From Candidatus Helarchaeota archaeon (lineage in GTDB: Archaea > Asgardarchaeota > Lokiarchaeia > Helarchaeales > RDOG01), in the NCBI GenBank assembly GCA_019058315.1, contig JAHPZH010000001.1:789169-853168 (forward strand): 64,000 nt of DNA, read 5' to 3'. The translations under genes and the position numbers were made by a program. The stretch's first letter is position 1, and every line of letters starts with the position of its first letter. Shown in pieces: positions 4,074-60,116 of this stretch. The notes under the pieces are model-generated. The model did no database searches. It was not told the origin of the DNA and saw only the letters and a program-made list of their open reading frames with translations.

Positions 4074-4215
4074 AATCTTTACCAATTCTTTATACTGTTA
4101 TAAAAATCACAGATTTTGTATTTATTAATTTTTATAAAAATGAATTATCAATAAATAGTATAGTAAGAAAATTAAAAAGTAAAAGTTAAAAAATATTTGT
4201 TATTAAGAATTGAGC

Positions 4216-4959: not shown

Positions 4960-5004
4960 ATCATTTATAATATATTCACCTCAAGGTTAATGTCATTTGT
5001 TTCT

Positions 5005-9171: not shown

Positions 9172-9488
9172 TTCTTATCACATCAAAGAAAAATATAATC
9201 TAAAATCCTTTATCATAAGAAATTTGATTCTTGTATAAAAATGGGTTTGGTCCACGTTAACATATCAAAAACTCCAAGTTTTAAATTCCTGAAATAATTT
9301 AAGAAATATAAAAGTGATAAAAGTCAAATTATATTTTAAAATATTATTTTTCATCAAAATTAGATAACTTGAGAATTAAATCATCCAGATTATTAATCAG
9401 AATTATATAATTTTAAAACAATTTAATTTCAAAATGCAACCTTTCAAATTAAATAATCATTTAATAATTCTTTTTCATATCTAGACTA

Positions 9489-35000: not shown

Positions 35001-38000
35001 ACTGGTGGGTAATTTCAAATCTACATCTGAAATAGAATAATTTAATTCCGCCGAAGTCAAGTTATAGATATATGACCTTATGTAATAATTTCCACTTTGA
35101 TTTTCAGCTAAAATATTTATTTTATCAGTAATATAAAAATCTATGAAATTTAGATTTGGTTCATAAATAATTGTATTGAAGTACTGTATCTCATCATCAT
35201 ATATTTTTATTGTACTATCAGAATCCATTACTATTAAATAATTATTACTATCTATATCAATACGAAATGGAGATTCCAGTCCGGAATCACTTAGAGTCTT
35301 TCGATAATAACCGGATGAATTATAAATTTTAATACTATTATCTATTGAACTTATACCAAAGATATAACCAGTAGTATTCATAATGACTTCTGTCCAACTT
35401 TCATCATCCGTTAATTGAAAAGTAAGCTCTGGAGGAATCTCTTGTGAACCATATTTATATAGCATTGATTGGTTACTACTTATGTTCTTGAAAATATATA
35501 CATCCCTGAAATAATCAATTGAAAGAGAAATATCTTCTGATTCATTATAATTAAATTCATATCTACTGGTTAAATCGCTTTCATTTGAAAATTTAAGAAT
35601 TTGAGCTTCACCATCTAATTTATTTAGAAGATAAAGATTATCCTTTTTATCCATGAATATTTGGTGTTCAGTTAAATTTTGATCAATATGCCAGCGCTCT
35701 GAAATTTCTTGTGCTTCCCAATCTATTTTTAAAATTTCGTTAGTAGAATGAGAAAGATAATATAAGTTTCCTAACGAATCTACTTCAATTTGATTTTTTA
35801 GTCCTTCACTTGAAATTTCACCACTTCCATTATAATTACTAAGAGAACAATAATGATCCATTTCTTTATTACGACCTTCATAATAACCCTCTGACCATGA
35901 GAAATCTACTGCATCCACATAGTTTTTATAACTACCAGATTGAAAATTTTCAAACTGAATGTAACTATATGGAGTGCTATCAGAAGAAAAAGCATATTCC
36001 CCAGATGTTGGATATCTTATGTCATTTATAAACAAGTACCATCCACTAGAAACATTAAACACAACTTTAAAATGGTACCAAGTATTATCTATAGCACTGC
36101 AAATATAAAATAAATCGCTTCCATTTTTTCCCGTAAAATGGTCATTATTAATATAAGCACGACAATATTTTGAGCTGCCAGATTTCGGTGCTATAGTGAA
36201 GCGAAACTCATAAAAATTATTTACATCAGTGCTTTGTATATAAAACTCAACTATGCCATTATCATAATCATCTCCAAAAGAATATTCTATTTTATCATCC
36301 ACCTTAACCATCTCTACTACCTTTTTATGACCTATAACCTCACTAACAACTTGAACAGTTGTTGGTAAAGTTTCCTCAACAGTCCAACCACTAGGATTAC
36401 ACCCAATTGTATCATTTGTAAAACTAAATAAACCTTTATAATGTCCAGAAGTATAAGCAAATTTTAAAATTTCTGAATTAGTTAAACAATATATAGATTG
36501 ATTATCATCTATGACAATGCTTGATAAATTATCATAATTGGTGATATTTATTTGGTATATTTTTTCACCATCAAGAGCATATATAACCACATGTTCCGGT
36601 CCATTATCGTCATGAAGAGCATGATATAAGAATGATACATTTTCAAAGTTTTTTATTTCAATATCAGTCCCTGTACCATTTAATCCTGAATTAAATGTCG
36701 CTAAATAGTTACCATAATTATCAAATTTATATATTAAATTATCTTTTAATGCATAAATATTACCCTGTTTATCAAATGCAGGTGATATTGATGTATTAAG
36801 AGAACTCTGAGTAAAATTGGGTTCTATTATTGAAAGCAAAGATGGAAAATTTTTTAGATATCTATATTTCAAAATTGAATTATTCGTTGTAATTAGAATA
36901 TTATCATTCAAATCAACACATACATCAAGTGGGGTTGTTGTATTTATGTCAATTTTCGCAAAAATAATTAAACCTGTTAAAATATACAGACTATGGTTGT
37001 TATAATCTGGATCTGTATCAATTAAATATAATCTATTATGCGAATCGTAATATAATCCCAATGGATTATTAAATGTATTATTTATTTTAGATGAAGGTTC
37101 TCCTGTTGAGTCGAATATAATTAAACTTTTATTTTCCCCATCCGAAACGGTTAAACTACCTTCAGAATCTATAGCAATACCATAAGGTTCTTGGAAATAA
37201 TGAATTTCATCTTCAATCTCGTAACTATCCCAGTCTGTAATATACATATAACCTAAAATTTCTCGATTTTCCACTTCTTTATCAATGAAGAATTTTACTA
37301 TTCGCTTATTATTTTTATCAACAACATAAAGATAATCACGATTTTCTTTATCGGTATAAACTTCAAGATCATTGGGGAAGCTGAAAGTATCATTAGCTGC
37401 CCATGTATTGAAGTTAAAAAAATAAATAGAGTCTGAAAATATATGGATTCTATTATTTCCAGAATCTGCTACATAAATATAACCATCAGAATCAACTGTA
37501 ATTCCACCAGGATTATTAAATTCATATTCAACAGAGGGAGAGCCATTACCCCATTTCTTTATAAAATTGCCAAATTTGTCAAATTTGACTATTACATTAT
37601 TTGCAGAATCACATACATATTGATTTCCTTCAGAATCAACAGCCATTCCTCTTGAATTATTTAAATTCATATTCCCATATTGACTCCATTTATCAATGTA
37701 TGTTACTGTCGGAATTTCAAGTTCAGGAATGACAGTTCCCACTTGCCATAAAAAGTTGGTTTCATTATCATATTTTTGAATTCTATAGTTTAATGGGTCA
37801 GCAAGATAAAAATCATCTTGTTGGTCTATTACCAAACCGTTTGGAGCGTAAAATTCTCCTTCTTCATAACCTAGAATTCCCCAACTGCTTTCATTAATAT
37901 AATCGCCTGAAAAAGTAAATTTTTGTATTCTGTGGTTAAGTGAATCCATTATATGAACATCCCCTTCAGAATCGAACGCTATATCTGTAGGTTTCGAGAA

Positions 38001-40523: not shown

Positions 40524-40715
40524 ATGAGAGATGATGATAGTTGGGCTTATTTATTCTATAATCCAATATCAAGCAATGATAATTTGCCACCTTTAATTCT
40601 ACTATTAACGATGCTAGAAGCTGGAGATTAATTAATATTCATATATCTAATAATTGGAATCGGTGCAGCGGCAGTAATAGTCATATTAATTATTGTGATA
40701 AAGCAGAAAAAATAA
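40524..40715 (+). pseudogene. Remnant of a paralogous C-terminal membrane anchor of the downstream WD40 gene
   Basis: Translates to YLFYN..DNLPPLILLLTMLEAGD*LIFIYLIIGIGAAAVIVILIIVIKQKK*, colinear with the end of 40886-42175; CAA>TAA at 40629. Confidence 0.75.
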
Positions 40716-40885
40716 TTTTCAAATAAACTTTATTCTTTTTCTTTTTTATAATAACAAAAAGATAGTTGTTCTAAAATCAATTTGCTTTTGCAATCCTAGC
40801 ATTAAATTAGACATTTCCTCAATGAAAAGATTTTTTAATCTATTTATTGAATTCAATTAAGAATTATTCATATCGAGGGAAAAAT

Positions 40886-42175
40886 ATGAAAAGGAAAATT
40901 GTAATTTTACTGTTCTCCCAAACAATCTTGATTTTTACGATGATTTTTCCGAGCTTAATGGCTATAACTAGTCAGAGCAACATATCTAACAATCTAGTTT
41001 TATCTATTACTGATACAAACAATGATCTAATATCATCCACAACTCCTATTCTATTAGGTAAATGGTCTACGAAAGAATATCCTTGCACAGTAGACATTTC
41101 GGCGGATGGGAGATACTTTGTGTCAGGAGAAGTAATTCATTGCAATGTTACATTTTATAATAGAAATGGTCCTAAGTGGTTCAACGACACTGGAGCTGCT
41201 ATTAATTTCGTTGCCATTTCTGCAGATGGTCAATATGTTGTTTCTGGAGATGATGATTATAATCTTACTTTATTTAACCGAACTCATCATTTATTAGATT
41301 ATTACAATTTTACCAGTGGAGTTAATACAGTTGCGATTTCCGAAGATGGTATGTTCTTTGTTGTTGGAAATAATAATGGAAATGTTACTTTGTTCAATAG
41401 ATCCAACCCCAATTTCAATCAAATTAATAAGATGTGGGGTCATTCAGTAGGTGGAAGCGTTCATTCCGTAGATATTTCAAGGAACGGTAAATACATCGTT
41501 TCTGGAAATGATGCTGGAAATGTTACTTTATTTACACAAAACAATACAATACTATGGGAGTATAATACTGGAATTACTATAGTCAATTCAGTGGGAATTT
41601 CAGCCGATGGTGATTATATCGTCTCTGGGGATGCTGAACATAATGTTACTCTATTTAATAGAACTGACTGTTTTCTATGGAATTATCTAGCAGGAGATGG
41701 TATTAATTCAGTGGCAATTTCGCAAGATAGTCAATATATAGTTGCAGGAGACACTGGTGGTAACGTTACTTTCTTTATGCAAAACAGTACGAAATTATGG
41801 GATTATGAGACTGAGAGTTATGACGTATATGATGTAGCAATCTCGATAGATGGTCAATATGTAGTTGCCGGAGATGGCAATAGTAATATTACCTTGTTCA
41901 ATAGGGACGGATTTGTGTGGTTCTATGAAACTGGAGATGATGTTGAGGCTGTGGCGATTTCTGCAGATGGTCGATATATCGTTGGTGGATCAAATGATCA
42001 AAACGTATATTTGCTTTATAATGGAGTTCCAAGTAAAGATAATTTGCTACCTTTAATTATACTATTAGGGATGCAAGAAACTGGAGATCAAGTAATATAC
42101 ATATTTTTAATAATTGGAATAGGTGCAGCGGCGGCAATAGTAATATTTATTGTTTTGATAAAAAAGGGAGAATAA
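40886..42175 (+). CDS. Membrane-anchored extracellular WD40/PQQ-like beta-propeller protein
   Basis: About eight VAISADGxYIVxGDxxxNVTLF repeats; signal peptide from ATG 40886; C-terminal TM. Confidence 0.85.
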   Translation: MKRKIVILLFSQTILIFTMIFPSLMAITSQSNISNNLVLSITDTNNDLISSTTPILLGKWSTKEYPCTVDISADGRYFVSGEVIHCNVTFYNRNGPKWFNDTGAAINFVAISADGQYVVSGDDDYNLTLFNRTHHLLDYYNFTSGVNTVAISEDGMFFVVGNNNGNVTLFNRSNPNFNQINKMWGHSVGGSVHSVDISRNGKYIVSGNDAGNVTLFTQNNTILWEYNTGITIVNSVGISADGDYIVSGDAEHNVTLFNRTDCFLWNYLAGDGINSVAISQDSQYIVAGDTGGNVTFFMQNSTKLWDYETESYDVYDVAISIDGQYVVAGDGNSNITLFNRDGFVWFYETGDDVEAVAISADGRYIVGGSNDQNVYLLYNGVPSKDNLLPLIILLGMQETGDQVIYIFLIIGIGAAAAIVIFIVLIKKGE

Positions 42176-42230
42176 ATCTCAAATTATTTTTTTTAATTTT
42201 TTTAATTTTATATGAAATTTTTTCTCAGGA

Positions 42231-44259: not shown

Positions 44260-45723
44260 ATGGTGTTTAAAGTCAACAATGAAATACAAGAAAATAATTA
44301 TTCTTTAGCACAAAGAGAGATTAATTTAATTGTAAAAAAATTTAATAAAAAATTTAAAATTAATTTTAGAGAATTATTTGAAAACGAAATTACAAATCAA
44401 AGGAAAATTCAATTAATTAAAAATTTTTATGAAACTTTATTAATAAAATTTAAAGATTTAGAGAATTCTGAAGCTTTTAATAATTTTTTAAAAGAATTTG
44501 AATCAATTTTAGTTGACGAATCTAAATTAATTGACAAATTCTTAATAATTTGTGAAAAATTTGGAATTCAATTCAAATTACCAAAAAAAATTGATGATAT
44601 TTTTCATATTTATCGTATAATATCGAATCCCAATACCTCTACTAAATATTATTTTATACTCAAATGTTTTTATGAAAATTCGAATAGATATTTAACAAAA
44701 AAACATGTTGAAATCTTATTATCTGAAATTCTAGGGGATTCAATAATTGATTTAGATGTTTACTTTAGAAATTTAAAATCTGTGAAATTAATAAAAAAAC
44801 AAAGTAAGAGATATCATTTAACAGAAATCGGAGTTACTTTTTTTGATTCAATTTTAAAATTAAAAGAAGAAATGAAAATACCTTTAATAGATAAATTAGA
44901 TCGGGTTATGCTATTACAAGCATTATATGATGAAAAAGGAATTCCTATACAAAGTCATCATCATATTCAACAAATAAGTTCTCTTATTAAAGAATTTATT
45001 GATGAAATTATAGAACACGATAATGTCCTTGAATGGTCGTCATACCTTGATAAGTTAGATGATATTATTTTAGATCTAGAAACATTTGCCCAAAGATATA
45101 AAAATGATTTCGGGATTTATCAACAAATATTAAGAGAAAAATCAGAATTAGCAAGAAAACTTGCAATTTATCATGAAGTGGCTCAAGAATCACTTAATAA
45201 ATACATTTCTTTAATTCATCAAGGATACGATCCAAAAAGAATGAAGTTAATCATTAATTTATTTAATAAAACTATATTCTCAGAATTATCAAATTGTTTA
45301 TACAACAATATTTTAAATGCTAGATTACCTCAGAATGAAGATTTATGGATGGATATTTTAATCATTAATAAAAAAGATTTTGAAGATATTAAGGATAATA
45401 GAATAAAAGAATCAATTATGACTGAAAAATTAAAAGATTCTAAGGCAATTGAATTATTAGATTTTTATTATCCTAGTTATAAATTGATGGGAGAAAAATT
45501 AATTTCGAAAATTAATAAATCGCCAATCAAATTATCAGAATTAACCAAAAGGTGGGATTGTAATTGGAAAATTTTAGCAGATTTCATTAATAATTTACCT
45601 TCAATTATAACCGAATTTCCTATCATTGCAATTGCTCAGAAGAAAATATTTAATTTCAAAGAAGGTATTGCAAGAGAGGGTATATTTTATACTTTATTAT
45701 CGGGTGAGAAGAATGATATTTGA
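44260..45723 (+). CDS. Putative kleisin-like subunit (JetA/MukF/MksF-like)
   Basis: wHTH (FRNLKSVKLI...YHLTEIG), helical bundle, C-terminal wHTH-like segment (PIKLSEL); first gene of the SMC operon. Confidence 0.5.
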   Translation: MVFKVNNEIQENNYSLAQREINLIVKKFNKKFKINFRELFENEITNQRKIQLIKNFYETLLIKFKDLENSEAFNNFLKEFESILVDESKLIDKFLIICEKFGIQFKLPKKIDDIFHIYRIISNPNTSTKYYFILKCFYENSNRYLTKKHVEILLSEILGDSIIDLDVYFRNLKSVKLIKKQSKRYHLTEIGVTFFDSILKLKEEMKIPLIDKLDRVMLLQALYDEKGIPIQSHHHIQQISSLIKEFIDEIIEHDNVLEWSSYLDKLDDIILDLETFAQRYKNDFGIYQQILREKSELARKLAIYHEVAQESLNKYISLIHQGYDPKRMKLIINLFNKTIFSELSNCLYNNILNARLPQNEDLWMDILIINKKDFEDIKDNRIKESIMTEKLKDSKAIELLDFYYPSYKLMGEKLISKINKSPIKLSELTKRWDCNWKILADFINNLPSIITEFPIIAIAQKKIFNFKEGIAREGIFYTLLSGEKNDI

Positions 45724-46291
45724 AATTAACGACGAATTCTTAGAAGATGTTCAACTATTAATCAATATTTTAATATTTAACGGAGGGAAAGGTATTAGTT
45801 TAGATGAAATTAAAAAGATTTTTGAAGAAAATTGTGATTCTATAATCAACGAAACTGATATCATTTTAAAGATGCTTCAGATAGAATTAAGAAATAATGA
45901 GAATAGACTTTTTATTGTTCCAAATAGAAAAATATATACTCAATTAAATTTATATGGTATAACAAATAAATTATTATCTCTAGAAACTAAAGAGCGAGAA
46001 AAACTAACACGCTTTATTACATTGTACTTGGCTGAGGGGAAAAATGAACCAATATCTAAAGAAAAAGTTAAATTTGAATTAAATGAAAAGTTTGGACTTA
46101 ATTTAGTTGAAAAAGATCTAAGAACTTTAGAAAGGTTTGGTTATATTAAATTAATTCATAATAAATTCGTTGATCTGGGATGGAGATTAAAAAATAGCAA
46201 AGAATTTAAAAGTTTTGAAACAAAATTTTTAGAATTTATAAAGAGGTTTGAAAAAAAACAAGTGTTAAAGGATAAAATTCGAAATGACTAG
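45713..46291 (+). CDS. Putative KITE subunit (tandem wHTH; JetB/MukE/ScpB/Nse1-like)
   Basis: 192 aa from ATG 45713 (GGTGA upstream; overlaps the previous stop); two wHTH units (GISLDEIK...; LRTLERFGYI...LGWR). Confidence 0.6.
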   Translation: MIFEINDEFLEDVQLLINILIFNGGKGISLDEIKKIFEENCDSIINETDIILKMLQIELRNNENRLFIVPNRKIYTQLNLYGITNKLLSLETKEREKLTRFITLYLAEGKNEPISKEKVKFELNEKFGLNLVEKDLRTLERFGYIKLIHNKFVDLGWRLKNSKEFKSFETKFLEFIKRFEKKQVLKDKIRND

Positions 46292-49145
46292 AATTTTGAA
46301 ACGATTAATTGTTAGAAATTTCAGATTATTTGGAGACAAAGAAAGAATTTTTGACTTTGGAGGAGGTTTTACTGAATTTATAGCGGGTAATTATAAAGGT
46401 AAAAGTACTTTATATTACGCTATAAAAATTGGATTAACAGGCAAAATACCTTCAGGTATGAGAAGATTAGGAGATCAAGGGGCTATACATTTTCCTCAAC
46501 TTGACGACAAGAATAAAGCTAAGAAAGCACAAGAAAAATTAAATGCAGAAATAAATATAGTTTTAAATAATGAACCTGGTGAAAATGGAAGAATTTTTTA
46601 TGAATTTGATCCATCATCAGATGAAATAATTATTGAGACGACTATTCCTCCTAGGGGAAAAATTAAATGTTATGTAAATGGAATAGAATGGGAGAAAAAT
46701 AATATTAGGACAGTTTTAAAAAGATTAGGAATTAATCCTGAAAACCCATTACTATTTTTAGAACAGGGGAAAGCTACAACTTTACTATCTAAGGGGCCAA
46801 TTGGTCTAATGGAATCTTTTGAAGAAACATTAGATTCTAAAGAGACAAAAGAAAATTTAGATGATGCCTTAAATTCTTACTTGAATACCGAAGAACAATA
46901 TAAGAATACCAGAACGAGATTTTATGAATTAGAAAGGACTTTGAATAAGTATGAAAAAGAATACGAAAGATTTAAAAAGTTTCTAGATTTAAATAGCGAG
47001 TTAAAAAGAACTCAAATTGAAAAACTTGTAAAAATTTTAAATGATACCATTATTTCTTTAGAATCTGATAAAAATGATTTAACATCAATTGAAGATAATA
47101 ATAAAGAAATTTACACTGAAAATGAGAATTTAATTAAGGATTTAAATAAAATTAGAATTGAAATAGCTAAATATCAAAATGAGAAAAAAGTTATTGAAGA
47201 ATTAAAGGAGAAATATCAAATTGAACTGGGTCAAATTAGATTAAAAATAGATAATTATCCTGAAAAATTAAACAAAATAGATTCAATTTTAAATGAAATT
47301 AATAAATTAAGACAATTAAATATAATAGAATTAAATAATAGATTAAGTATCTTAAAAGAAACACTATCAAAATCTAATTATGAAAATGAAGGAATTAAAA
47401 ATAATATTAGTAAAATTAGAACAGAATTGAAAGAATTAAAAAAAGGAGGGTTAATAGGACCAAGTAATTCTGAGAAATTTTTAAAAATTTTAAAGCAAAA
47501 TGAGATAAAAGCAGATTTATTAATAAATACATTAAATATAGAACCAATTCCATCTGACAATATTGAAAAAATTAAAAAATTACAATATTTTGAATCAGTT
47601 CTTGGTACTTTAAGGTGGTCGATAGTTATATATGATTTTAAAGATGAATTCGCAAAAGCTGTGAAAATTGCTAAAGAATGTTTTTTCAACAATTATTTAA
47701 TTAAAATAAATGAAGGAAATAATAATCTTCAAAAATATTCAATTGTTTTTGATATAATAAATTTAAATTCAAAAAGTCTATTAATTAAAAAGTATATTGA
47801 AAAGGTTATAGATGAATTTGAAAAAAAAATACTAAAAATTGAAGATTATAGATTAATAAAAGATATGTTTGGAACTAGATTTTTTATTTTAAAACCTGGA
47901 GAATTCTATTTAAACAAAAGTGAAAGAGTAAAATGGTTAGAAAAACAGGAAGGTGTCTTAACTAAAAATAAAAAGGAAATGACTAAAAAAATTGAACAAA
48001 TGGAGCAGGAAATATTAGAAATTAATGAAATAAACGAGAAAATCGAAAAAGAAGAACAATTGATTTTGGAGAAGGAAAAATTAATTTCTGAATATAAAAA
48101 GAATAAAGCTAGAGATATAAAGATTAAAAAAGAATTAGAAAAAAATAAAAATGAAATAAAAAATTTTGAAGAAATGATTGAAGAATCACGAAAAAAAGAA
48201 TATGATATTAATTATAAATTAGAGAATAATCAAAGAATTTTAGACAATAACAATATAAAGATTTCAGATCTTAGGAATCAAAATAACAAACTAGAGATTA
48301 TAATAAAAAATTATAATAAATTTTTAAGAAATGTAAAAGAAAATTTCAAAAGACCTCGCGAAATATCTATCCTTAATTATATTATTAATGAAATTAATGA
48401 AAATTTAAAAAAATTATCTAATATTGATTTTGAAATAAAAGAAAAATATTTTAAAACTAAAGGATCTTATGACGACGTGATAGTTGCATTTGAAAAAATC
48501 CAAGATGATTTATATAAGAAAATAGAACGTGTTAAGAAATATCAACTCGAACATAAGGAGTTTATTGAGAAAGTTTTAAAAGAATTAAATAGAGAATTTT
48601 CAAAAATTCTAACTCAAATTGATTTTAAAGGTAAGATAATTAGTAAATTATATCGTAAAGAAAAAAGAAAAGGATTGAAAGTAATTTCAGAAGATCCAGA
48701 AATTATTATGACTCCTAAAACTAAATATGGTCTGGACTTATTAATAAAAGAACCTAATGATACAATTTTTTATCCTCTTTTTAATGAAGAAGGTAATGTT
48801 TCGATTCGTCACTCAGGAGGAAAAAGAGAAATTCTAATGTTAGCTTTTTTATTATCTATACAACGAATTTTGAAACGATTTTCAAGTTTTTATACATTAG
48901 ATGAACCTACACCACATATGGATGATAAAAATACGGAATTGTTCATGAAAATATTAGGAGAATCTGAAAATCAGATAATTTTATTTACGCCTAGACCAAT
49001 ACCTGCGGAGCATGTAGATGAAATTATTTCTTTGATTGATAATAAAATTTACAAGATAGATAAGAAGGAACTAAAAAAAATAAAAATATCAAAAGATACG
49101 AATCTAAATGAGTATTTTTACATTCGTAAAGGTGAAATAAATTAA
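46284..49145 (+). CDS. SMC-family ATPase (SMC5/6 / JetC-like)
   Basis: VRNFR, Walker A AGNYKGKST, Q-loop GINPENPLLFLEQG, long coiled coils around a central hinge (FESVLGTLRWSIVI), signature HSGGKRE, Walker B FYTLDEPTPHMD, ILFTP. Confidence 0.9.
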   Translation: MTRILKRLIVRNFRLFGDKERIFDFGGGFTEFIAGNYKGKSTLYYAIKIGLTGKIPSGMRRLGDQGAIHFPQLDDKNKAKKAQEKLNAEINIVLNNEPGENGRIFYEFDPSSDEIIIETTIPPRGKIKCYVNGIEWEKNNIRTVLKRLGINPENPLLFLEQGKATTLLSKGPIGLMESFEETLDSKETKENLDDALNSYLNTEEQYKNTRTRFYELERTLNKYEKEYERFKKFLDLNSELKRTQIEKLVKILNDTIISLESDKNDLTSIEDNNKEIYTENENLIKDLNKIRIEIAKYQNEKKVIEELKEKYQIELGQIRLKIDNYPEKLNKIDSILNEINKLRQLNIIELNNRLSILKETLSKSNYENEGIKNNISKIRTELKELKKGGLIGPSNSEKFLKILKQNEIKADLLINTLNIEPIPSDNIEKIKKLQYFESVLGTLRWSIVIYDFKDEFAKAVKIAKECFFNNYLIKINEGNNNLQKYSIVFDIINLNSKSLLIKKYIEKVIDEFEKKILKIEDYRLIKDMFGTRFFILKPGEFYLNKSERVKWLEKQEGVLTKNKKEMTKKIEQMEQEILEINEINEKIEKEEQLILEKEKLISEYKKNKARDIKIKKELEKNKNEIKNFEEMIEESRKKEYDINYKLENNQRILDNNNIKISDLRNQNNKLEIIIKNYNKFLRNVKENFKRPREISILNYIINEINENLKKLSNIDFEIKEKYFKTKGSYDDVIVAFEKIQDDLYKKIERVKKYQLEHKEFIEKVLKELNREFSKILTQIDFKGKIISKLYRKEKRKGLKVISEDPEIIMTPKTKYGLDLLIKEPNDTIFYPLFNEEGNVSIRHSGGKREILMLAFLLSIQRILKRFSSFYTLDEPTPHMDDKNTELFMKILGESENQIILFTPRPIPAEHVDEIISLIDNKIYKIDKKELKKIKISKDTNLNEYFYIRKGEIN

Positions 49146-50625
49146 TTTAGATAAAATTAAGCTAAATAATAAGTGTAAATGTAATAATTATAAAGATTTA
49201 ATCTATAAGATACTTCCTACTAGCAAAATTATAAATATAAATGATTATATATCGGAAATGAAAATAAAAATTAAGGCAAAGGTATGTCCATTTTGCAGTA
49301 AAATAGTAAAAATATTAGATTATAAATTAATAAATGAAATTGTTTATTTTCAGAAAATAATTGATACAAAATTTTTTGATTCATTAAATAAAAATTCTCA
49401 AAATTTTTTGATTAAACTTAATTCTAAAACATTTAGTCATTTTAGGAATTTAAGAAAGGAATTTGGAATTAATTATTTAAATATTATAAAAGATTTGTGG
49501 ACACACGGATTTATTAAAATTAAAAGAAATAAAATAAATCCAAAATTAACTTCATCTATAGAATTGTCATCAAAATATCATGAGAAATTTATTAATAATT
49601 TAGAAAAGAAGGGTATGATAAATAAAACTATTTCATTGACGCCAAATTGTAAGAATTTTTTTATAAACAGATTCATTCACCTTAAAAATAAAGAAATAAA
49701 GGAGAAACGATCTCAAATTATTTCTAAAATAAAATCAAAAATAAAATATTTGGAGGGGTTAGTTCATAAAAATCCTGATGAAAGAATTAAATGGATAAAA
49801 CAAATTTTTGAAAATATTCAATTCAAATCTAATGTAACTATTGGCATCCAGAGATGTGATTTGGATTTTTTAAATAAATTTGATATATTAGAATATAATT
49901 TAGATTTTTTAATATATGTTTGTAACGAAATTTCTAAAAAAGAATTAATTTCAATTAAAAATTTCAATAAAATATATAAGAAAAAAATTTCAAAAGAAAA
50001 ATTTGAAAAGTTAAAAAAATCAATTAGAGATTTCAGAAATATTCCAAGAATCATCTTAAAATTTGATTTAACATGTTATAACATTGTCAAAGAACCTATG
50101 AAGAATATCAGTAGAAGTATGAGACTTTTTAGAGAACTTCAAAATTTTTTAATTAATTTTTTAGAACCTTTGATTAATTCCTTTGTAATTAATAATTTGA
50201 AAAGCGAAGTTGACCTCGATAAAATTTGGTCTGAAAGAATTCCAAGAAATGTTAGAAATAGTATAAAAGGAGCTTTTTATTCTACAAAAAAGAAATTGAA
50301 AGTTGAAAGAATTATTTATGAAGCTGAATTTCAGGATTTAATTGATAATTGTAAAATTGATGAACTATTAAATTATTCCTTATTTAATTCCTTGGGTTCA
50401 ATTATTATTTATCCAGTCAATTGGGATTCAATTTTTAAAGACTATTTTACATTCTGTTCAACTTCCTCTGAGTTACAAGATAAATTCCTAAAGTTATTTT
50501 TTCTTAGAAATAAAGTTGCTCATAAAAAAGATATAAAAATTGATATTTTAAAAATACTTAAAATAGAGAATATTGAATTATCAGAAATTTTAGAATTTTG
50601 TTTTAATTTATTAAGATCGTTATAA
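49141..50625 (+). CDS. Zn-ribbon/wHTH protein with C-terminal Swt1-like HEPN domain
   Basis: Frame is open from ATT 49141, overlapping the SMC stop, with GGTGA at 49131; CKC...CPFC; C-terminal WSERIP...LLNYSLF..L..II..NW..IF...F...RNKVAH. Confidence 0.7.
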   Translation: MNLDKIKLNNKCKCNNYKDLIYKILPTSKIININDYISEMKIKIKAKVCPFCSKIVKILDYKLINEIVYFQKIIDTKFFDSLNKNSQNFLIKLNSKTFSHFRNLRKEFGINYLNIIKDLWTHGFIKIKRNKINPKLTSSIELSSKYHEKFINNLEKKGMINKTISLTPNCKNFFINRFIHLKNKEIKEKRSQIISKIKSKIKYLEGLVHKNPDERIKWIKQIFENIQFKSNVTIGIQRCDLDFLNKFDILEYNLDFLIYVCNEISKKELISIKNFNKIYKKKISKEKFEKLKKSIRDFRNIPRIILKFDLTCYNIVKEPMKNISRSMRLFRELQNFLINFLEPLINSFVINNLKSEVDLDKIWSERIPRNVRNSIKGAFYSTKKKLKVERIIYEAEFQDLIDNCKIDELLNYSLFNSLGSIIIYPVNWDSIFKDYFTFCSTSSELQDKFLKLFFLRNKVAHKKDIKIDILKILKIENIELSEILEFCFNLLRSL

Positions 50626-50788: not shown

Positions 50789-52756
50789 CTACTCCCTGAA
50801 ATACTTTCTTTTTACGATAACTTCTCCTATATTGTCTCGAATATTCTTTTGATATCGCTGTTCAATTTCATTAATTCGTTTACGGGAATAAAATTCAGAA
50901 CCACCATATTCACCAACATTAACAAACAATATTTTTAATTCAGGATAGTGCTTTTTATTAAAAATTCGAACAACTTTATAATTAAATGGCAAGACTTTGC
51001 TTGTTAGAGATGGAACAACTATGAAATCAACTTTATTTTCTTCAGCCCATTTTGAAATTACTTCATATAAACGAAGAAAATCTTTACAAATAAAAATCGC
51101 AATCCTACCAAATGTAGTTTGAAAAATATTGATTTTAGGTTTTCTCTCACATTTTATACTCTCAATGATGTTGGGGTATATCAAAACAGGTGTTTGTTTT
51201 TTCTGAATATTATGTGCGAAATTATCAATTATAATTGCCTGATTTAAATACTCATCAAATTTATGTGATTTGTGCATTTTTGATAAGTCATCCCAAGAAA
51301 AACGATATCGGGGACTTTTTATGTGTTCCATCCCTCCTATGAATAAAATATTAAAATCAGTATTTATCTCTTTAAATTGCTTAATAGTATTAATCAGGCC
51401 TTTAAGGTAATTGTTTGGGATTGAATTTTCTGGAAAAATTATGAGTTTATTTTTCCCAGGATCCCTTAAAATTAGTTCCATTATTTCATTAGTTTTCTTA
51501 AATATACCCAAGTCGGTTACATCATACTGAAGAACATTTGATTCTATTGCATCAGGTCTCCAAACTTGTTTCACGAAATAAAAAAAATGATCTTTTATAG
51601 ATTCATCTGGTTTAAAGTTATATTTCATAGAAAGCGAGTGAATTTGTACCATGTAAATTTGGACTTCTCTAATATTTTTATTAAATTTATTTAATGGAAT
51701 TTCATTAGGTTCATAAGCTAAAAACCACGCATTCTGTTTATCCCTTAAAATATCATTTTCTCTCCAAGTTCCCAAATCAAGGATTTCCTCTTCTGATACA
51801 CTCTCAATATATTCTTTATATTCTTTTATTCTTTTTGCATTTAATTCAACTTTACTAATAGGTTGTTGTTCTCTCTTCTTGCAATAATCAAGGACTTTTG
51901 GAATTGAAGTTTTTAATAAGTGAATCTCTTCAAAAGACAAAGGATTGTATTCAAGGCGTAATACCCTAAGCCTAGTAAGATTTGTTAATCCTTTAATTTC
52001 AGTTATTCTATTATTACTAAGATTTAGATGTTCAAGCTGAGTTAAAGCCTCCAAATTCCTAATTTCGGTGATTTGATTGCTTGCAAGATTTAAAAATTTA
52101 AGTTTATTTAATTTATCTAGCTTTTTGATTTCTGATATTTTGTTCCCACTGAGAAAAAGAGCCCTAAGATCTTTTAAACTGTCTAACTTTTCAATATTTG
52201 AAATTAAATTAGAAGAGAGATCTAAAGTTTGAAGATTTATAAGAGAATCCAGATTTTTGATTTCTTTTATTTTATTAAACATTAAATTCAAAGTTTTTAG
52301 TGAAGTTAAGGCGTCTAAGTTTTCTAATTCTGGAATCTTATTTTTTATACATTCTAGAAAAGATAATTTAGTGAGATGATCAATATTTTCAATTTTTGAA
52401 ATTTGATTATTACCTAAAAACAAAGATTTCAGATTAGTTGAAGTCTCAAGTTCTTCAATTTTTGTTATTTGGTTATTATTAAATATTAGCGTTTTAAGTT
52501 GTGTTAGATTTTCCAAATTTTCAATTTTTTTTATTTGATTACCTGCAAGTCTTAAATCTAGGAGATTAGTTAAGGTTTCTAAATTCTTAATCTCGGAAAT
52601 TTTATTGTATGAAAGATCTAATACTTGAAGGTGAGTCTGCTGTTCTAATTTCTTAATCTCTGAAATATCTCTTATTCCAACCGCATTTAATTGAAGATAT
52701 TTAATTCCATTAACATCCTCAATTTTATAAGATTTTCCCCTAAATTCCACGGACAT
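50789..52756 (-). CDS. Leucine-rich repeat protein fused to a nitrilase/carbon-nitrogen hydrolase domain
   Basis: About 11 SDS22-like 22-aa LRRs, then IIFPENS (Glu), QKKQTP (Lys) and IFICKDF (Cys). Confidence 0.8.
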   Translation of the reverse strand: MSVEFRGKSYKIEDVNGIKYLQLNAVGIRDISEIKKLEQQTHLQVLDLSYNKISEIKNLETLTNLLDLRLAGNQIKKIENLENLTQLKTLIFNNNQITKIEELETSTNLKSLFLGNNQISKIENIDHLTKLSFLECIKNKIPELENLDALTSLKTLNLMFNKIKEIKNLDSLINLQTLDLSSNLISNIEKLDSLKDLRALFLSGNKISEIKKLDKLNKLKFLNLASNQITEIRNLEALTQLEHLNLSNNRITEIKGLTNLTRLRVLRLEYNPLSFEEIHLLKTSIPKVLDYCKKREQQPISKVELNAKRIKEYKEYIESVSEEEILDLGTWRENDILRDKQNAWFLAYEPNEIPLNKFNKNIREVQIYMVQIHSLSMKYNFKPDESIKDHFFYFVKQVWRPDAIESNVLQYDVTDLGIFKKTNEIMELILRDPGKNKLIIFPENSIPNNYLKGLINTIKQFKEINTDFNILFIGGMEHIKSPRYRFSWDDLSKMHKSHKFDEYLNQAIIIDNFAHNIQKKQTPVLIYPNIIESIKCERKPKINIFQTTFGRIAIFICKDFLRLYEVISKWAEENKVDFIVVPSLTSKVLPFNYKVVRIFNKKHYPELKILFVNVGEYGGSEFYSRKRINEIEQRYQKNIRDNIGEVIVKRKYFRE

Positions 52757-53008: not shown

Positions 53009-53069
53009 AGTGACTAAAAAAAGTCCTAGTGACTAAAATAAGTTCCGAAAAGTGACTACAAAAGGTATC
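53009..53069 (+). repeat. Three direct repeats of AGTGACTA(A/C)AA just upstream of the nuclease gene
   Basis: Copies at 53009, 53028 and 53051. Confidence 0.6.
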
Positions 53070-53078
53070 TTTAACAAA

Positions 53079-53654
53079 ATGAAAGAAATTGAGCTAATAG
53101 ATGGGTTTTGCGAATTTCTAGAAGCGCAAAACCTAAGTTATAAGAGAGAATTATGGAGAGGAAGTCGTTTTAATGAGGGGTATGTGGATATCGTAATTTT
53201 TGATGGTGAATATATAGGCATAGAAGCAAAATTAAATAATTTCAATTCTGTATTAGCCCAAGCTTGGGTAAATACTCTGTATTTTCCCTTATCTTATATA
53301 TTATATTCCAAATCTCCAACCAGATATAATAAATTCGAATTGAAAAAGACAACGATAGGGCTAATCATTCCTCAAGGTAAAGGTTTTAAAATATTAAGAA
53401 AACCAAGAATGAATAAGACTTGTTTTTATGATATAATTAAAAGAAATTGGGAGGAAAATAGAGTTGGGAGGAAAATACATAATTCTGAAATTCCAGAAAA
53501 TTATAATATTGAGAAAGTTAAAGAATTAGAATGTACATATGATTGGTTAAAATCTAAATTTGAACTTGATTTAAAGAATAAAATTCAAAAACGAATAATT
53601 GATTTTCTGGATGATCTACGAATTGAAAAAAGAGAACACGAAATTCTTCCCTAA
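53079..53654 (+). CDS. Small PD-(D/E)XK nuclease-fold protein
   Basis: E...YVDIV....IGIEAK.....LAQA pattern; start placed at ATG 53079. Confidence 0.65.
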   Translation: MKEIELIDGFCEFLEAQNLSYKRELWRGSRFNEGYVDIVIFDGEYIGIEAKLNNFNSVLAQAWVNTLYFPLSYILYSKSPTRYNKFELKKTTIGLIIPQGKGFKILRKPRMNKTCFYDIIKRNWEENRVGRKIHNSEIPENYNIEKVKELECTYDWLKSKFELDLKNKIQKRIIDFLDDLRIEKREHEILP

Positions 53655-55896
53655 AAAAGATATTAATGACAATATTGACAAATTCATAGCGTGGATAGGA
53701 TTTTTTATATCAGATTTTCTTCTCGAATACTCCCTTAATCTATTTGAAATGTTTAAAGAGAACTACCAAAACGATCCTGAAAAATATGTTGCCTTTGAAA
53801 TATTTGATTCATGGAAAGATCAAACCAATCGTAGGAATGAATTAGAAGATAAAAATAAAGCTCAATTTTGTATAGAATCAATATTGATGTTTCTAATTAA
53901 AATTTTATTTTTAAGAATTTGCGAAGATAAAGGAATTTACCCCCATTCCTTAAAGAAAATTGTATTATACGGTAGAACCGCATTATTAAATAATGAAATC
54001 AAAGATGATGACGTTTTAAACTCAATTTTTAAAAGAATTATCGAATTATCACCCAATTATTTTAATTACGGAGTATTACACTGGCATTTAACTCAAGACA
54101 AAATTTTTAATGAATATCTAAATAGAATTATCGATTTTTTCTATCGATTTGATTTTAAGAACTTAGACTGGGATATTTTAGGTAATATTTATGAAAAATG
54201 TATATTTAAAGAAAGGAGGAAATCCTTAGGTCAATTTTATACTCCAATTGAAATTATTGATTATATACTTGAAAAAACAGGTTATAGAGCAAGTTCAGAA
54301 ATTGAAAATCTGAAAGTTATAGACCCTTGTTGTGGTTCCGGTTCATTTTTGATTCGAGCGATTAAAAAATTAATAGAGAGATATAAAATAAAATATCAAA
54401 CGGATATTTTTTCTCCAAAGCAAGCAGAAAATGTTCTCAAGAGTATAACAAATAACATTTATGGATTTGAAATAAACAATTTTGCATGTTTTCTAGCAAA
54501 AATGAATATAATCTTTCAAATCATTGAGCTTTATTATCTTGTACTTAAAAATAACAATTCATATAAGCAAGATCCTTTTCACATCCTTAATATTGATGTG
54601 TTAAATCTTAAATTTACGGAAATTGAGCCTTTAATTGGAAGTATAAAACCTGATATTGTTGTAGGAAATCCTCCATATGTTTTCATTAGAGATTTGCCAG
54701 AATCTGAAAGAAAAAGAATTCAAGCTCTCGAACTAGAAACAAACAAAGGACAGTGGGATTTATATCAATTATTTATTGAAATCGGAATAAAACTGTTAAA
54801 TGAAGGAGGATATTTTGGATATATCGTCCCAGATAGCATCCTAGCTAATAGTGAAAGGGGAGTTGTTCGAGAATTCATCAATAATAATTGTAATATTGAA
54901 ATTGTGCATCATGTTGGAAAGAAATTCAAAATGCCCGTTGTATCAAATGTTATTCTAATACTTCAAAAAGCAAGTGAACCCAACTATGATACAGAAACAA
55001 ACCTGATTTTTAGCTCAGATGAGAGAGAAATAGTCAATACAATACAACAAAGAGAAATTAAGGAAAATTGGGATTATAAATTCTATTTACATTTATCCAA
55101 GGAAGATGATAAATTAATTAAAAAATTGAAAGAGTTTCCAACTATTGAAGAAATTGATAAAAATAATCCCAAAATTAATATTAAAATCAGTAGAGGTGTG
55201 GAATTAACCAAGAAAGGCAAGATCTTTTACTGTTCTAATTGTAAAATTTATTATCCCTTACCTGAAAAACAAAATAAATGTAGGATTTGTGGAAATGATT
55301 TTGTTGTTAATTCGATTGAAACTATTGTAAATGAAAAAAAAATAGATGAAAATTATAAATTATTTGTTTCAGACCTTAATAGATATAAAATTCAGAAATA
55401 TCAATATATTGCTATAAATAAGGAAGGGATTAATTATAAAAATCCAGAAATTTATCTCCCAAATCGGATAATAGTTAGACAATTAAGTGAAAGTGGGCTA
55501 ATCTGCGCAACTATAGAACCAGAAGGAGCTTACACTAGTCAAAGCATTTACAATATTAATACAAATTTAAATCCTTATTATTTGTTAGGTATAATTAATT
55601 CAAAATTAATGAGTTACTATTTTTCTAAGATTTTTGGCAGTTATAAATCTCTTTTCCCAAGAATTTTAATTGAATATATCAAAAAATTACCTTTAGCGAT
55701 TGCTGATAAAAATATCGAATCCCAGATTGAAAATTTAATAAAAAAAATACTTAATCTTAATATTAAAGAAGTGAACGAAGGTAAAAAATTCTGTTTAATG
55801 GATTTTCAACCCCAAATTGATAGTTTGGTTTTTAATCTGTATGGTTTAAATTTATCTGAAAAGTTGCTTGTCCGAAATTTTTTTGATGCAATTTGA
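53611..55896 (+). CDS. N6-adenine DNA methyltransferase with TaqI-like target-recognition domain
   Basis: LGQFYTP, DPCCGSG, VGNPPY, YLLGIINSKL motifs; CxxC..CxxC insert. Confidence 0.9.
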   Translation: MIYELKKENTKFFPKKDINDNIDKFIAWIGFFISDFLLEYSLNLFEMFKENYQNDPEKYVAFEIFDSWKDQTNRRNELEDKNKAQFCIESILMFLIKILFLRICEDKGIYPHSLKKIVLYGRTALLNNEIKDDDVLNSIFKRIIELSPNYFNYGVLHWHLTQDKIFNEYLNRIIDFFYRFDFKNLDWDILGNIYEKCIFKERRKSLGQFYTPIEIIDYILEKTGYRASSEIENLKVIDPCCGSGSFLIRAIKKLIERYKIKYQTDIFSPKQAENVLKSITNNIYGFEINNFACFLAKMNIIFQIIELYYLVLKNNNSYKQDPFHILNIDVLNLKFTEIEPLIGSIKPDIVVGNPPYVFIRDLPESERKRIQALELETNKGQWDLYQLFIEIGIKLLNEGGYFGYIVPDSILANSERGVVREFINNNCNIEIVHHVGKKFKMPVVSNVILILQKASEPNYDTETNLIFSSDEREIVNTIQQREIKENWDYKFYLHLSKEDDKLIKKLKEFPTIEEIDKNNPKINIKISRGVELTKKGKIFYCSNCKIYYPLPEKQNKCRICGNDFVVNSIETIVNEKKIDENYKLFVSDLNRYKIQKYQYIAINKEGINYKNPEIYLPNRIIVRQLSESGLICATIEPEGAYTSQSIYNINTNLNPYYLLGIINSKLMSYYFSKIFGSYKSLFPRILIEYIKKLPLAIADKNIESQIENLIKKILNLNIKEVNEGKKFCLMDFQPQIDSLVFNLYGLNLSEKLLVRNFFDAI

Positions 55897-58659: not shown

Positions 58660-58697
58660 AGATTAAAAATAATATAAACTCATTATAAATTTTTTTT
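58660..58697 (-). promoter_or_regulatory. Putative TATA-box promoter for a leaderless GH4 transcript
   Basis: A-tract then TTTATAAT about 25-30 nt upstream of the ATG; similar elements precede the other two copies. Confidence 0.35.
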
Positions 58698-58739
58698 ATT
58701 CTATATCTTTCAAATTCTTGATTTTTGTGAGTTTATTCC

Positions 58740-60038: not shown

Positions 60039-60116
60039 AGATTAAAAATAATATAAGATTATTTTAAATTTTTTTAGAGCTTTTTAAGTCTAAAAACTCA
60101 TTTTAGAATTTTTACA

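What the first reader, a model, noticed from the sequence alone, without database searches (positions are those of the whole stretch)
44260..50625. Wadjet-like SMC operon in a probable Asgard archaeon with a HEPN RNase in place of the Toprim nuclease
Seen: four co-oriented genes with overlapping stop/start junctions and very AT-rich sequence: a 487-aa wHTH/helical protein, a 192-aa tandem-wHTH protein, a 953-aa SMC ATPase and a 494-aa protein ending in an RxxxxH motif. Known: Wadjet (jetABCD/mksFEBG) has the order kleisin-KITE-SMC-Toprim and cleaves plasmids sensed by loop extrusion; HEPN RxxxxH domains are RNases used in abortive defence. Inference: an SMC sensor of extrachromosomal DNA wired to an RNase, giving dormancy or cell death rather than DNA cleavage. 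I know of no description of this arrangement.
Basis: partly seen in the sequence, partly recalled or inferred. Interest (0 to 1): 0.92.

Follow-up and report, generated by a model that had tools for sequence, protein, structure and literature searches.

The report
Wadjet-like SMC operon with HEPN effector
An Asgard archaeon carries a rare four-gene operon built like the anti-plasmid Wadjet system, but its fourth subunit has a predicted HEPN RNase where the usual DNA-cutting Toprim domain sits, so a DNA-sensing SMC motor may here be coupled to RNA cleavage.

Summary
Four co-oriented, overlapping genes lie at 44260-50625 at 21-23% GC, against about 30% in the flanks.

- **Gene 3** is an SMC-family ATPase.
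- **Gene 2** is a tandem winged-helix protein with weak ScpB and MksE hits.
- **Gene 1** looks like a MukF/JetA-type kleisin, but only by language-model features and operon position. Its fold failed and the docking job gave no verdict.

The same four-gene operon occurs in three other assemblies (32-47% identity). A more divergent MksE/JetC-like trio carries a shorter homologue of the same HEPN effector. Among 400 genomes of the phylum, full-length gene 4 and gene 1 occur in the same three genomes.

No JetD Toprim domain was found in this genome. Bona fide JetD-bearing Wadjet operons in other Asgard genomes have the same gene order and sizes.

I found no published description. RNase activity, complex formation and a defence role are inferred. 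Other first-stage notes of this scan flagged the same stretch, none on other DNA.

Verdict: a new variant of a known kind.

The parts
44260..45723 (+). Gene 1, 487 aa: probable kleisin-like subunit (JetA/MukF-like). It has a winged helix near residues 130-206, long helices, an acidic linker and a C-terminal winged-helix-like end.
   Evidence: ORF. The language-model search places it nearest to MksB (PF28010), MukF and JetA clusters, score 0.90-0.86 with 166-184 shared features. Orthologues at 33-35% identity sit in the same operon position. No HMM hit to any kleisin family. The AF2 model has pLDDT 49 and is unusable.
45713..46291 (+). Gene 2, 192 aa: tandem winged-helix protein, probable KITE subunit (JetB/MksE/ScpB-like).
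   Evidence: ORF. Orthologues at 39-47% identity. Among 6 aligned members, SMC_ScpB matches 2 (best E 2.2e-4) and MksE matches 1 (6.6e-5). All are below Pfam cut-offs. The nearest Atlas clusters are unnamed Asgard proteins; DUF4194 and MAGE clusters score 0.76-0.77.
46284..49145 (+). Gene 3, 953 aa: SMC-family ABC ATPase with short coiled-coil arms and a central hinge-like domain.
   Evidence: Pfam SMC_N 2.2e-16, above the cut-off. TIGR02169 1.2e-18. The family profile matches archaeal Smc heads in the PDB at 6e-29. hhalign against the SMC subunit of JetD-bearing Asgard Wadjet operons gives probability 98.9, E 1.7e-17, 797 columns.
46383..46409 (+). Walker A of gene 3 (A34-G-N-Y-K-G-K-S-T42; [AG]x4GK[ST]).
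   Evidence: A34, N36, G39 and K40 are invariant in the 4-member alignment.
48813..48905 (+). ABC signature (S844-G-G-K) and Walker B (F869-Y-T-L-D-E874) of gene 3.
   Evidence: R842, H843, S844, G845, G846, F869, Y870, D873 and E874 are invariant.
49141..50625 (+). Gene 4, 494-aa open frame (455 aa from the ATG at 49258): JetD-like N-terminal module fused to a C-terminal HEPN domain. It is the predicted effector subunit.
   Evidence: AF2 model with pLDDT 89.9. Family of 10 representatives among 1.84 billion proteins. Alignment A3. Fold searches.
49174..49296 (+). Four-cysteine zinc-ribbon motif of gene 4 (C12-x-C14 ... C49-x-x-C52). The first pair lies upstream of the first ATG.
   Evidence: Conserved in all full-length homologues. 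JetD proteins of Asgard Wadjet operons carry CxC...CxxH at the same place.
49360..50094 (+). Winged-helix (residues 74-187) and CAP-like (residues 209-318) domains of gene 4.
50110..50622 (+). HEPN domain of gene 4 (residues 324-494).
50506..50523 (+). R456-N-K-V-A-H461, the HEPN R-x4-H motif.
   Evidence: R456 and H461 are invariant in all 12 aligned family members.

Best explanation
The locus is a horizontally acquired, Wadjet-like SMC module. Gene 3 (SMC ATPase), gene 1 (kleisin-like) and gene 2 (KITE-like) would form a JetABC-type DNA-loading and loop-extruding sensor. Gene 4 takes the place of JetD. It keeps a JetD-like N-terminal zinc-ribbon, winged-helix and CAP module, presumably for docking on the complex or on DNA, but carries a Swt1/Abi-type HEPN domain where JetD has its Toprim nuclease.

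The most likely mechanism is as follows. The SMC complex recognises small extrachromosomal DNA. It then brings two gene 4 subunits into a dimer that completes the composite HEPN active site. RNA is cleaved rather than DNA. This either destroys transcripts at the invading element or arrests the cell.

Shown here:
- the gene order and overlaps;
- the SMC family assignment;
- the HEPN fold with invariant R and H;
- the conserved four-gene synteny and co-occurrence;
- that no JetD Toprim domain was found in the genome.

Inferred:
- kleisin and KITE identity;
- physical assembly of the four proteins;
- RNase activity;
- what triggers it, and that it serves defence.
For: - **Operon.** The four genes overlap and have lower GC than the flanks.
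- **Gene 3.** SMC_N matches at 2e-16. The family is homologous along its whole length to the SMC subunit of JetD-bearing Asgard Wadjet operons. Those operons have the same order and sizes: 471/454, 254/230, 978/973 and 486/495 aa.
- **PADLOC blind spot.** In those bona fide operons PADLOC also misses JetA and JetB. The lack of HMM hits for genes 1 and 2 is therefore expected.
- **Gene 1.** It is nearest to MksB, MukF and JetA clusters by language-model features.
- **Gene 2.** It gives weak ScpB and MksE hits.
- **Synteny.** The same four genes occur in L011, L021 and L022. A divergent trio of a 540-aa protein, an MksE-like protein and an AAA_29/JetC1-like SMC is followed by the gene 4 homologue P0018.
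- **Co-occurrence.** Full-length gene 4 and gene 1 occur in the same 3 of 400 phylum genomes.
- **No JetD.** No JetD_C or DUF2399 was found in the genome. The only Toprim genes are on other contigs.
- **Context.** The operon sits in different chromosomal neighbourhoods, next to R-M methylases, PLD, kinase-helicase and DUF4062 genes.
Against: - No sequence-level link joins genes 1, 2 or the gene 4 N-terminal half to JetA, JetB or JetD. hhalign E values are 0.18, 0.12 and 0.03-0.04.
- The JetD shape matches are modest, TM 0.35-0.42. No solved JetD appeared among the VIA rows shown.
- The gene 3 family profile scores the genome's own housekeeping Smc (46 bits) about as well as Asgard JetC (43 and 39 bits). 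It does not detect the MukB-like SMC of L028. Gene 3 is therefore not specifically a JetC by sequence.
- The gene 1 fold is unknown.
- The family is tiny, so covariation and statistics are weak.
- No mobility gene or flanking repeat marks the island.
- Some HEPN homologues of gene 4 stand alone.
Confidence: 0.6

Rival explanations
1. Genes 1-3 form an accessory SMC complex for chromosome or episome organisation, for example a divergent Smc-ScpAB or Smc5/6-like paralogue. Gene 4 is then an RNA-processing or regulatory partner and the locus is not an immune system.
For: The gene 3 head is closest to canonical Smc and Smc3 in the PDB. It scores the genome's own Smc as well as it scores JetC. Gene 2 gives weak ScpB hits. 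No mobility genes were found.
Against: The operon is present in only 3 of 400 genomes of the phylum. The genome already has two full-length SMC genes. GC is much lower than in the flanks. Chromosomal neighbourhoods differ between genomes and defence-type genes are adjacent. The gene order is that of Wadjet and MukFEB, not that of smc with a separate scpAB.
Confidence: 0.12
2. Gene 4 is an independent HEPN toxin or abortive-infection gene embedded at the end of an SMC operon. It is co-inherited with the SMC complex but does not bind it and is not controlled by it.
For: HEPN-only relatives occur alone (P0017 in L025; G053 loci). Defence genes are often nested within other systems (abstract of 10.1101/2024.01.29.577857, listed).
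Against: Every full-length homologue sits directly after the SMC gene, with overlapping or abutting reading frames. Its distribution across genomes matches that of gene 1 exactly. A second, divergent SMC lineage has the same arrangement. Its N-terminal half resembles JetD, the docking subunit of Wadjet. No antitoxin-like partner is evident.
Confidence: 0.12
3. The HEPN domain is not a nuclease here. It serves as a dimerisation or RNA- or nucleotide-binding module, and the complex blocks or silences foreign DNA without cleaving anything.
For: No activity data exist. JetD dimerises through its Toprim domain (review PMC10586767), so a replacement could be selected for dimerisation alone.
Against: R456 and H461 are invariant across members at 27-41% identity, together with N427, W428, E318 and E342. 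That is the pattern expected of a maintained active site.
Confidence: 0.1
4. The system is a Lamassu-type module, with an SMC-like LmuB and a variable effector, rather than Wadjet-type.
For: PADLOC LmuB models match the gene 3 orthologue P0008 (6e-20) and gene 3 itself weakly. Lamassu effectors are variable and act by abortive infection.
Against: The same LmuB models also match the SMC subunit of bona fide JetD-bearing Asgard Wadjet operons, so the hit is generic. No LmuA or LmuC model matches. The operon has kleisin-size and KITE-size genes upstream in Wadjet order. Gene 3 is about 950 aa with a hinge-like centre.
Confidence: 0.05

Closest known systems
Wadjet / JetABCD (also MksBEFG, EptABCD), especially the JetD-bearing operons found here in Asgard genomes G183 and G048
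   Same: Four-gene order of a kleisin-size gene, a KITE-size gene, an SMC gene and an effector. Subunit lengths are nearly identical. The SMC is homologous along its full length. The fourth subunit has a JetD-like N-terminal shape and a CxC...C zinc-ribbon motif. Distribution is sporadic.
   Different: The C-terminal Toprim/JetD_C nuclease is absent and a HEPN domain is in its place. Genes 1, 2 and 4 match no JetA, JetB or JetD model. By sequence the SMC is no closer to JetC than to housekeeping Smc. The predicted substrate is RNA, not DNA.
Lamassu (LmuABC)
   Same: An SMC-like ATPase sensor is coupled to exchangeable effector domains, and the proposed outcome is abortive. LmuB models hit gene 3.
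   Different: Lamassu has no kleisin-KITE pair, its ATPase is shorter and its effector subunit LmuA is unrelated. No LmuA or LmuC was detected here.
Swt1-like and Abi-type HEPN RNases (yeast Swt1 C-terminal domain, AbiF, Csm6)
   Different: These proteins act alone, in toxin-antitoxin pairs or under cyclic-oligoadenylate control. None is reported as a subunit of an SMC complex.
Smc-ScpAB of archaea and bacteria
   Same: It is the closest solved head sequence (5xei_A, 6e-29). Gene 2 gives weak ScpB hits.
   Different: Gene 1 is about twice the length of ScpA and matches no ScpA model. The coiled-coil arms are shorter. The genome has two other full-length SMC genes. The operon is present in only 3 of 400 genomes of the phylum.

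Membership tests
Wadjet (JetABCD) | SMC-family ATPase subunit (JetC) | tested here: inconclusive
   SMC_N is above the Pfam cut-off, so the SMC family is met. JetC-specific assignment is not. PADLOC JetC models give only E 9e-4 to 0.1 for gene 3 and 1e-16 for JetC3 on the orthologue P0008. hhalign to Asgard JetC gives probability 98.9. The family HMM scores housekeeping Smc equally well.
Wadjet (JetABCD) | Kleisin subunit (JetA) bridging the SMC neck and cap | tested here: inconclusive
   Language-model similarity to MksB, MukF and JetA clusters is 0.86-0.90. No HMM or profile hit. The AF2 model has pLDDT 49. JetA of bona fide Asgard Wadjet is equally invisible to PADLOC.
Wadjet (JetABCD) | KITE subunit (JetB) of tandem winged helices | tested here: inconclusive
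   ScpB matches 2 of 6 members (best E 2.2e-4) and MksE matches 1 of 6 (6.6e-5), all sub-threshold. hhalign to Asgard JetB-like proteins gives E 0.12. The fold was not predicted.
Wadjet (JetABCD) | JetD effector with a C-terminal Toprim nuclease domain | tested here: not met
   No Toprim, JetD_C or DUF2399 hit in gene 4. Its C-terminal domain is a HEPN fold. No JetD_C or DUF2399 was found in the 94%-complete genome.
Wadjet (JetABCD) | JetD N-terminal CAP (arm) module | tested here: inconclusive
Wadjet (JetABCD) | Operon order jetA-jetB-jetC-jetD | tested here: met
   Genes of 487, 192, 953 and 494 aa are co-oriented and overlapping. The order and sizes are the same as in the JetD-bearing Asgard operons.
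HEPN superfamily (Swt1-like / Abi-like) | R-x4-6-H motif | tested here: met
   RNKVAH at residues 456-461. R and H are invariant in 12 of 12 aligned members.
HEPN superfamily (Swt1-like / Abi-like) | All-helical HEPN fold | tested here: met
HEPN superfamily (Swt1-like / Abi-like) | Metal-independent RNase activity | not testable with these tools
   This needs a biochemical assay.
Lamassu | LmuA effector and LmuC partner alongside LmuB | tested here: not met
   PADLOC gives LmuB hits only. There is no LmuA or LmuC hit for genes 1, 2 or 4. The same LmuB models also hit bona fide Asgard JetC.
Smc-ScpAB | ScpA kleisin (PF02616) partner | tested here: inconclusive
   Gene 1 and its orthologues give no ScpA hit. 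In the genome as a whole the only ScpA match is weak and lies elsewhere.

The most novel reading that the evidence does not exclude
Wadjet-type SMC sensors have exchangeable effectors, as Lamassu does. In this Asgard lineage the JetD scaffold has swapped its Toprim DNA nuclease for a HEPN RNase. Recognition of small circular DNA by loop extrusion would then be read out as RNA cleavage, meaning abortive infection, dormancy or destruction of transcripts at the episome. This would be the first SMC-kleisin-KITE complex wired to an RNase.
Probability: 0.45. Interest if true: 0.85.

Novelty: new variant of a known kind. Interest (0 to 1): 0.74.

Why it matters
Wadjet is described as an SMC sensor tied to one effector, the JetD Toprim nuclease. 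The 2023 review PMC10586767 contrasts this with the variable effectors of Lamassu.

A natural JetD-scaffold-HEPN chimera would show that the effector end of a kleisin-KITE SMC complex is modular. It would also give a test case for how an SMC motor's stalled or collided state is passed to a bound enzyme. HEPN sites need a dimer, as the Toprim site of JetD does.

The finding would add an RNA-directed, possibly abortive branch to SMC-based immunity, in the archaeal lineage closest to eukaryotes. Eukaryotic Smc5/6 also restricts episomes without cutting them.

The work also shows that standard defence HMMs miss the JetA and JetB subunits of Asgard Wadjet operons. Such systems are therefore probably under-counted.

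Tried and rejected
- **Word-index homology search for gene 4:** only the protein itself was found. The same search with the gene 1 alignment found only known members.
- **Sequence profiles against the PDB:** nothing relevant for the gene 1 or gene 4 families.
- **Foldseek of the whole gene 4 model against the PDB:** no hit at E<=0.001. The VIA second look at Foldseek's list returned only winged-helix proteins.
- **AF2 model of gene 1 from a 5-sequence alignment:** pLDDT 49, so it was not used for fold search.
- **Complex prediction of gene 1 with the two head halves of gene 3:** no verdict, score 0.21 against a mark of 0.32. This is neither support nor evidence against.
- **Profile comparisons with JetD-bearing Asgard operons:** hhalign of genes 1, 2 and 4 against JetA-, JetB- and JetD-position proteins was not significant. 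hhalign of the gene 1 family against the 540-aa first gene of L028 was also not significant.
- **Pfam JetA (PF18982) across 400 Asgard genomes:** one sub-threshold hit, so it gave no reference sequences.
- **Gene 3 protein search in 60 relatives:** no hits at 1e-5.
- **Flanking direct repeats or att sites around the low-GC island:** none convincing. No tRNA or Rfam hit in the window.
- **Sequencing runs:** no RNA holder listed. Only the probable source sediment metagenome holds the DNA, so expression was not assessed.
- **Taxonomic placement of L028 and L011 by genome handle:** the records are not held.
- **Smc5/6-like head, proposed by a sister note:** the profile search ranks prokaryotic Smc, Smc3, Smc2 and Rad50 well above Smc5 and Smc6, so that reading was not adopted.
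Full report
**Observation**

The window holds four co-oriented ORFs on the + strand:
- Gene 1: 44260-45723, 487 aa.
- Gene 2: 45713-46291, 192 aa.
- Gene 3: 46284-49145, 953 aa.
- Gene 4: a fourth frame open from 49141 to 50625.

Gene 2 overlaps gene 1 by 11 nt, and gene 3 overlaps gene 2 by 8 nt.

The first ATG, GTG or TTG is at 49258, which gives 455 aa. The homologues show that the longer form is the real one. A CxC pair at residues 12-14 of the long frame is conserved and pairs with a CxxC at 49-52. The alignment with ATG-started orthologues begins at residue 7. Initiation is therefore probably at a non-canonical codon at or just after 49141 (ATT), overlapping the gene 3 stop.

GC is 0.21-0.23 over the operon, against 0.28-0.35 for most of the window.

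The host is an Asgard archaeon. The 5.8-Mb, 12-contig assembly encodes a eukaryote-type actin at 448 bits. The window also carries giant ORFs and WD40, TPR and LRR proteins. The DNA comes from a sediment metagenome.

**Gene 3**

Gene 3 matches Pfam SMC_N at 2.2e-16, above the cut-off, and TIGR02169 at 1.2e-18. Four sequence motifs are invariant among four orthologues:
- Walker A, A34-x4-GKS;
- Q-loop, LEQ161;
- signature, S844-GGK;
- Walker B, FYTLDE874.

A profile of the family hits archaeal Smc heads best in the PDB (5xei_A, 6e-29). Smc3, Smc2 and Rad50 follow, with Smc5 and Smc6 far behind. MukB and JetC chains do not appear.

The genome has two other full-length SMC genes of 1189 and 1192 aa. 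Gene 3 is therefore an extra paralogue.

**Genes 1 and 2**

Neither gene matches any kleisin or KITE model above threshold.

By protein-language-model features gene 1 is nearest to clusters carrying MksB (PF28010), MukF and JetA. Scores are 0.90-0.86 with 166-184 shared features. The AF2 model of gene 1 was poor (pLDDT 49) and could not be used. The docking job with the SMC heads gave no verdict.

Gene 2 and its orthologues give sub-threshold ScpB hits (best 2.2e-4). The counterpart in locus L028 gives an MksE hit at 6.6e-5.

Kleisin and KITE identities therefore remain inferences from position, size and these weak signals.

**Gene 4**

An exhaustive HMMER search of 1.84 billion representatives found only ten family members. 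In a 12-sequence alignment R456 and H461 (RNKVAH) are invariant, together with N427, W428, E318, E342 and R299.

AF2 with this alignment gave a confident model (pLDDT 89.9, pTM 0.71).

An exhaustive VIA-align search of PDB representatives gave three sets of matches:
- Residues 74-187: MarR-type winged helices.

The shape search of the ESM Atlas returned two JetD clusters as its first two rows. These carry JetD_C, DUF2399 and Toprim families, with TM 0.35-0.42 and 232-234 residues aligned within residues 26-464. Its third row was a Swt1-like HEPN cluster. Pfam HEPN_Swt1 is hit weakly by 5 of the 12 members.

Gene 4 is therefore a zinc ribbon, a winged helix and a CAP-like module followed by a HEPN domain. 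This is the layout expected if the JetD scaffold had exchanged its Toprim domain for HEPN. The Z and TM values are moderate. Profile comparison of the N-terminal half with Asgard JetD is not significant (E 0.04). The JetD-scaffold part is therefore probable, not proven.

**Synteny and co-occurrence**

Gene 2 orthologues led to a contig of GCA_019057975.1 with genes of 450, 192, 959 and 491 aa in the same order and with overlapping junctions. Identities to the window proteins are 32-47%.

Genome searches found the same operon in G228 (484, 188, 955 and 489 aa) and in G216. Among 400 genomes of the phylum, gene 1 and full-length gene 4 are found in exactly the same three genomes, counting the window's own.

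The weaker gene 4 hits elsewhere cover only the HEPN domain, and the two inspected lie outside SMC operons.

A more distant homologue, P0018 (368 aa, RNRIVH), closes a different four-gene operon in GCA_048886445.1. That operon has:
- a 540-aa protein;
- a 240-aa protein hitting MksE;
- a 1261-aa SMC hitting AAA_29 at 4.9e-8 and JetC1 at 2.9e-7.

Another homologue, P0016, follows an SMC-like fragment with a weak MukB-hinge hit. The HEPN effector is thus associated with at least two divergent SMC lineages.

**Comparison with real Asgard Wadjet**

JetD_C (PF09983) is present in 3 of 400 Asgard genomes. In G183 and G048 it ends operons of 471/454, 254/230, 978/973 and 486/495 aa. This is the same order and nearly the same sizes as here.

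In those operons PADLOC recognises JetC and JetD but not the first two genes. This explains why genes 1 and 2 of the window are invisible to the same models. The PADLOC hit profile of their SMC subunit (JetC3, mad3, LmuB, JetC1) resembles that of the gene 3 orthologue P0008.

hhalign of the gene 3 family against these JetC proteins gives probability 98.9 and E 1.7e-17 over 797 columns. However, an HMM of the gene 3 family scores the genome's own Smc (46 bits) as well as it scores these JetC proteins (43 and 39 bits).

The Asgard JetD proteins begin with CxC...CxxH. They share a conserved W and an LTxxG with the gene 4 family in a colinear alignment.

The window's genome has no JetD_C or DUF2399 match. 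Its only two Toprim genes are on other contigs.

**Context**

The operon sits in a low-GC stretch of about 14 kb. An LRR-nitrilase fusion and Eco57I-type methyltransferases lie downstream.

In the other genomes the neighbours differ:
- a kinase-helicase and a PLD protein;
- a DUF4062 protein;
- methyltransferase-corrinoid genes and a histidyl-tRNA synthetase;
- a PLD protein;
- a Mu-type transposase.

These are documented. This pattern fits a mobile accessory cassette. No integrase, tRNA or flanking repeat was found here.

**Interpretation**

The best reading is a Wadjet-like SMC module whose JetD-position subunit carries a HEPN RNase.

By analogy with JetABCD (review PMC10586767), the SMC-kleisin-KITE core would sense small circular DNA by loop extrusion. 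It would then switch on the bound effector.

From general knowledge of the family, HEPN active sites are formed across a dimer. This parallels the dimeric Toprim site of JetD. The output would be RNA cleavage, and its target range is unknown.

Physical assembly, RNase activity and a defence role are all inferences.

The rivals are less well supported:
- a non-immune SMC paralogue;
- an embedded independent HEPN toxin;
- a non-catalytic HEPN domain;
- a Lamassu-type system.

**Novelty**

Full-text searches gave the following results:
- Wadjet with HEPN and kleisin, and MksG with HEPN: no papers.
- JetD with HEPN: only general surveys.
- HEPN with SMC-like and KITE: the ten listed papers contain no HEPN mention.
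- Wadjet with HEPN and SMC: only general surveys and reviews.

The review of SMC-based immunity states that Lamassu, unlike Wadjet, combines its SMC with varied effectors.

Sister first-stage notes of this scan proposed the same reading for this same stretch. None was on other DNA.

I class the locus as a new variant of a known kind. It fails the Toprim criterion for Wadjet membership but most probably works like Wadjet up to the effector step.

Noticed in passing
L021:7642-10512 (-) and L021:6176-7651 (-); window 49141-49257: In the G216 operon the SMC gene and the HEPN gene both lack any ATG, GTG or TTG at the position where their orthologues start. The frames open with ATC/ATA/ATT and TTC-AAT-TTA-ATT codons directly after the upstream stop. 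The window's gene 4 does the same (ATT AAT TTA). This suggests AUU, AUC or AUA initiation, or termination-reinitiation, at overlapped junctions in these AT-rich Asgard operons.
   Followed up: partly
L034 (G183:C142) 3130-9550 (-); L035 (G048:C21) 2975-9359 (-): Bona fide JetD-bearing Wadjet operons in Asgard genomes have first and second genes that no PADLOC model recognises. Standard tools would therefore call these systems incomplete. Their JetD proteins begin with a CxC...CxxH zinc-ribbon-like motif.
   Followed up: partly
window 50789-52756 (-): A 655-aa protein with about eight LRR_4 repeats (2.6e-47) is fused to a carbon-nitrogen hydrolase domain (9.6e-5). It lies directly downstream of the operon and is convergent with it. 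It may be a sensor-effector protein.
   Followed up: no
window 53052-55896 (+) and 61453-63822 (-): Two large N6_Mtase/Eco57I/MmeI-type methyltransferase genes, the first also carrying a TaqI_C specificity domain, are probably type IIG/IIL restriction-modification enzymes. The first is preceded by an overlapping 200-aa ORF with no Pfam family hit.
   Followed up: no
window 57361-61415 (-): Three tandem 432-aa ORFs of identical length lie here. The first is a family 4 glycosyl hydrolase, so this is an apparent tandem triplication.
   Followed up: no
window 11319-22070 (-), 32073-39830 (-), 5005-9171 (-): Giant ORFs of 3583, 2585 and 1388 aa. They were not examined.
   Followed up: no
window 40548-40750 and 42008-42210: A 203-nt direct repeat (78% identity) brackets the WD40-repeat gene at 40847-42175.
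   Followed up: no
L025:1174-4387: The stand-alone HEPN homologue P0017 (284 aa) sits between a 424-aa Peptidase_U32 gene and a 162-aa ORF with a weak Peptidase_U32 hit. This looks like an insertion next to or into a duplicated gene.
   Followed up: no
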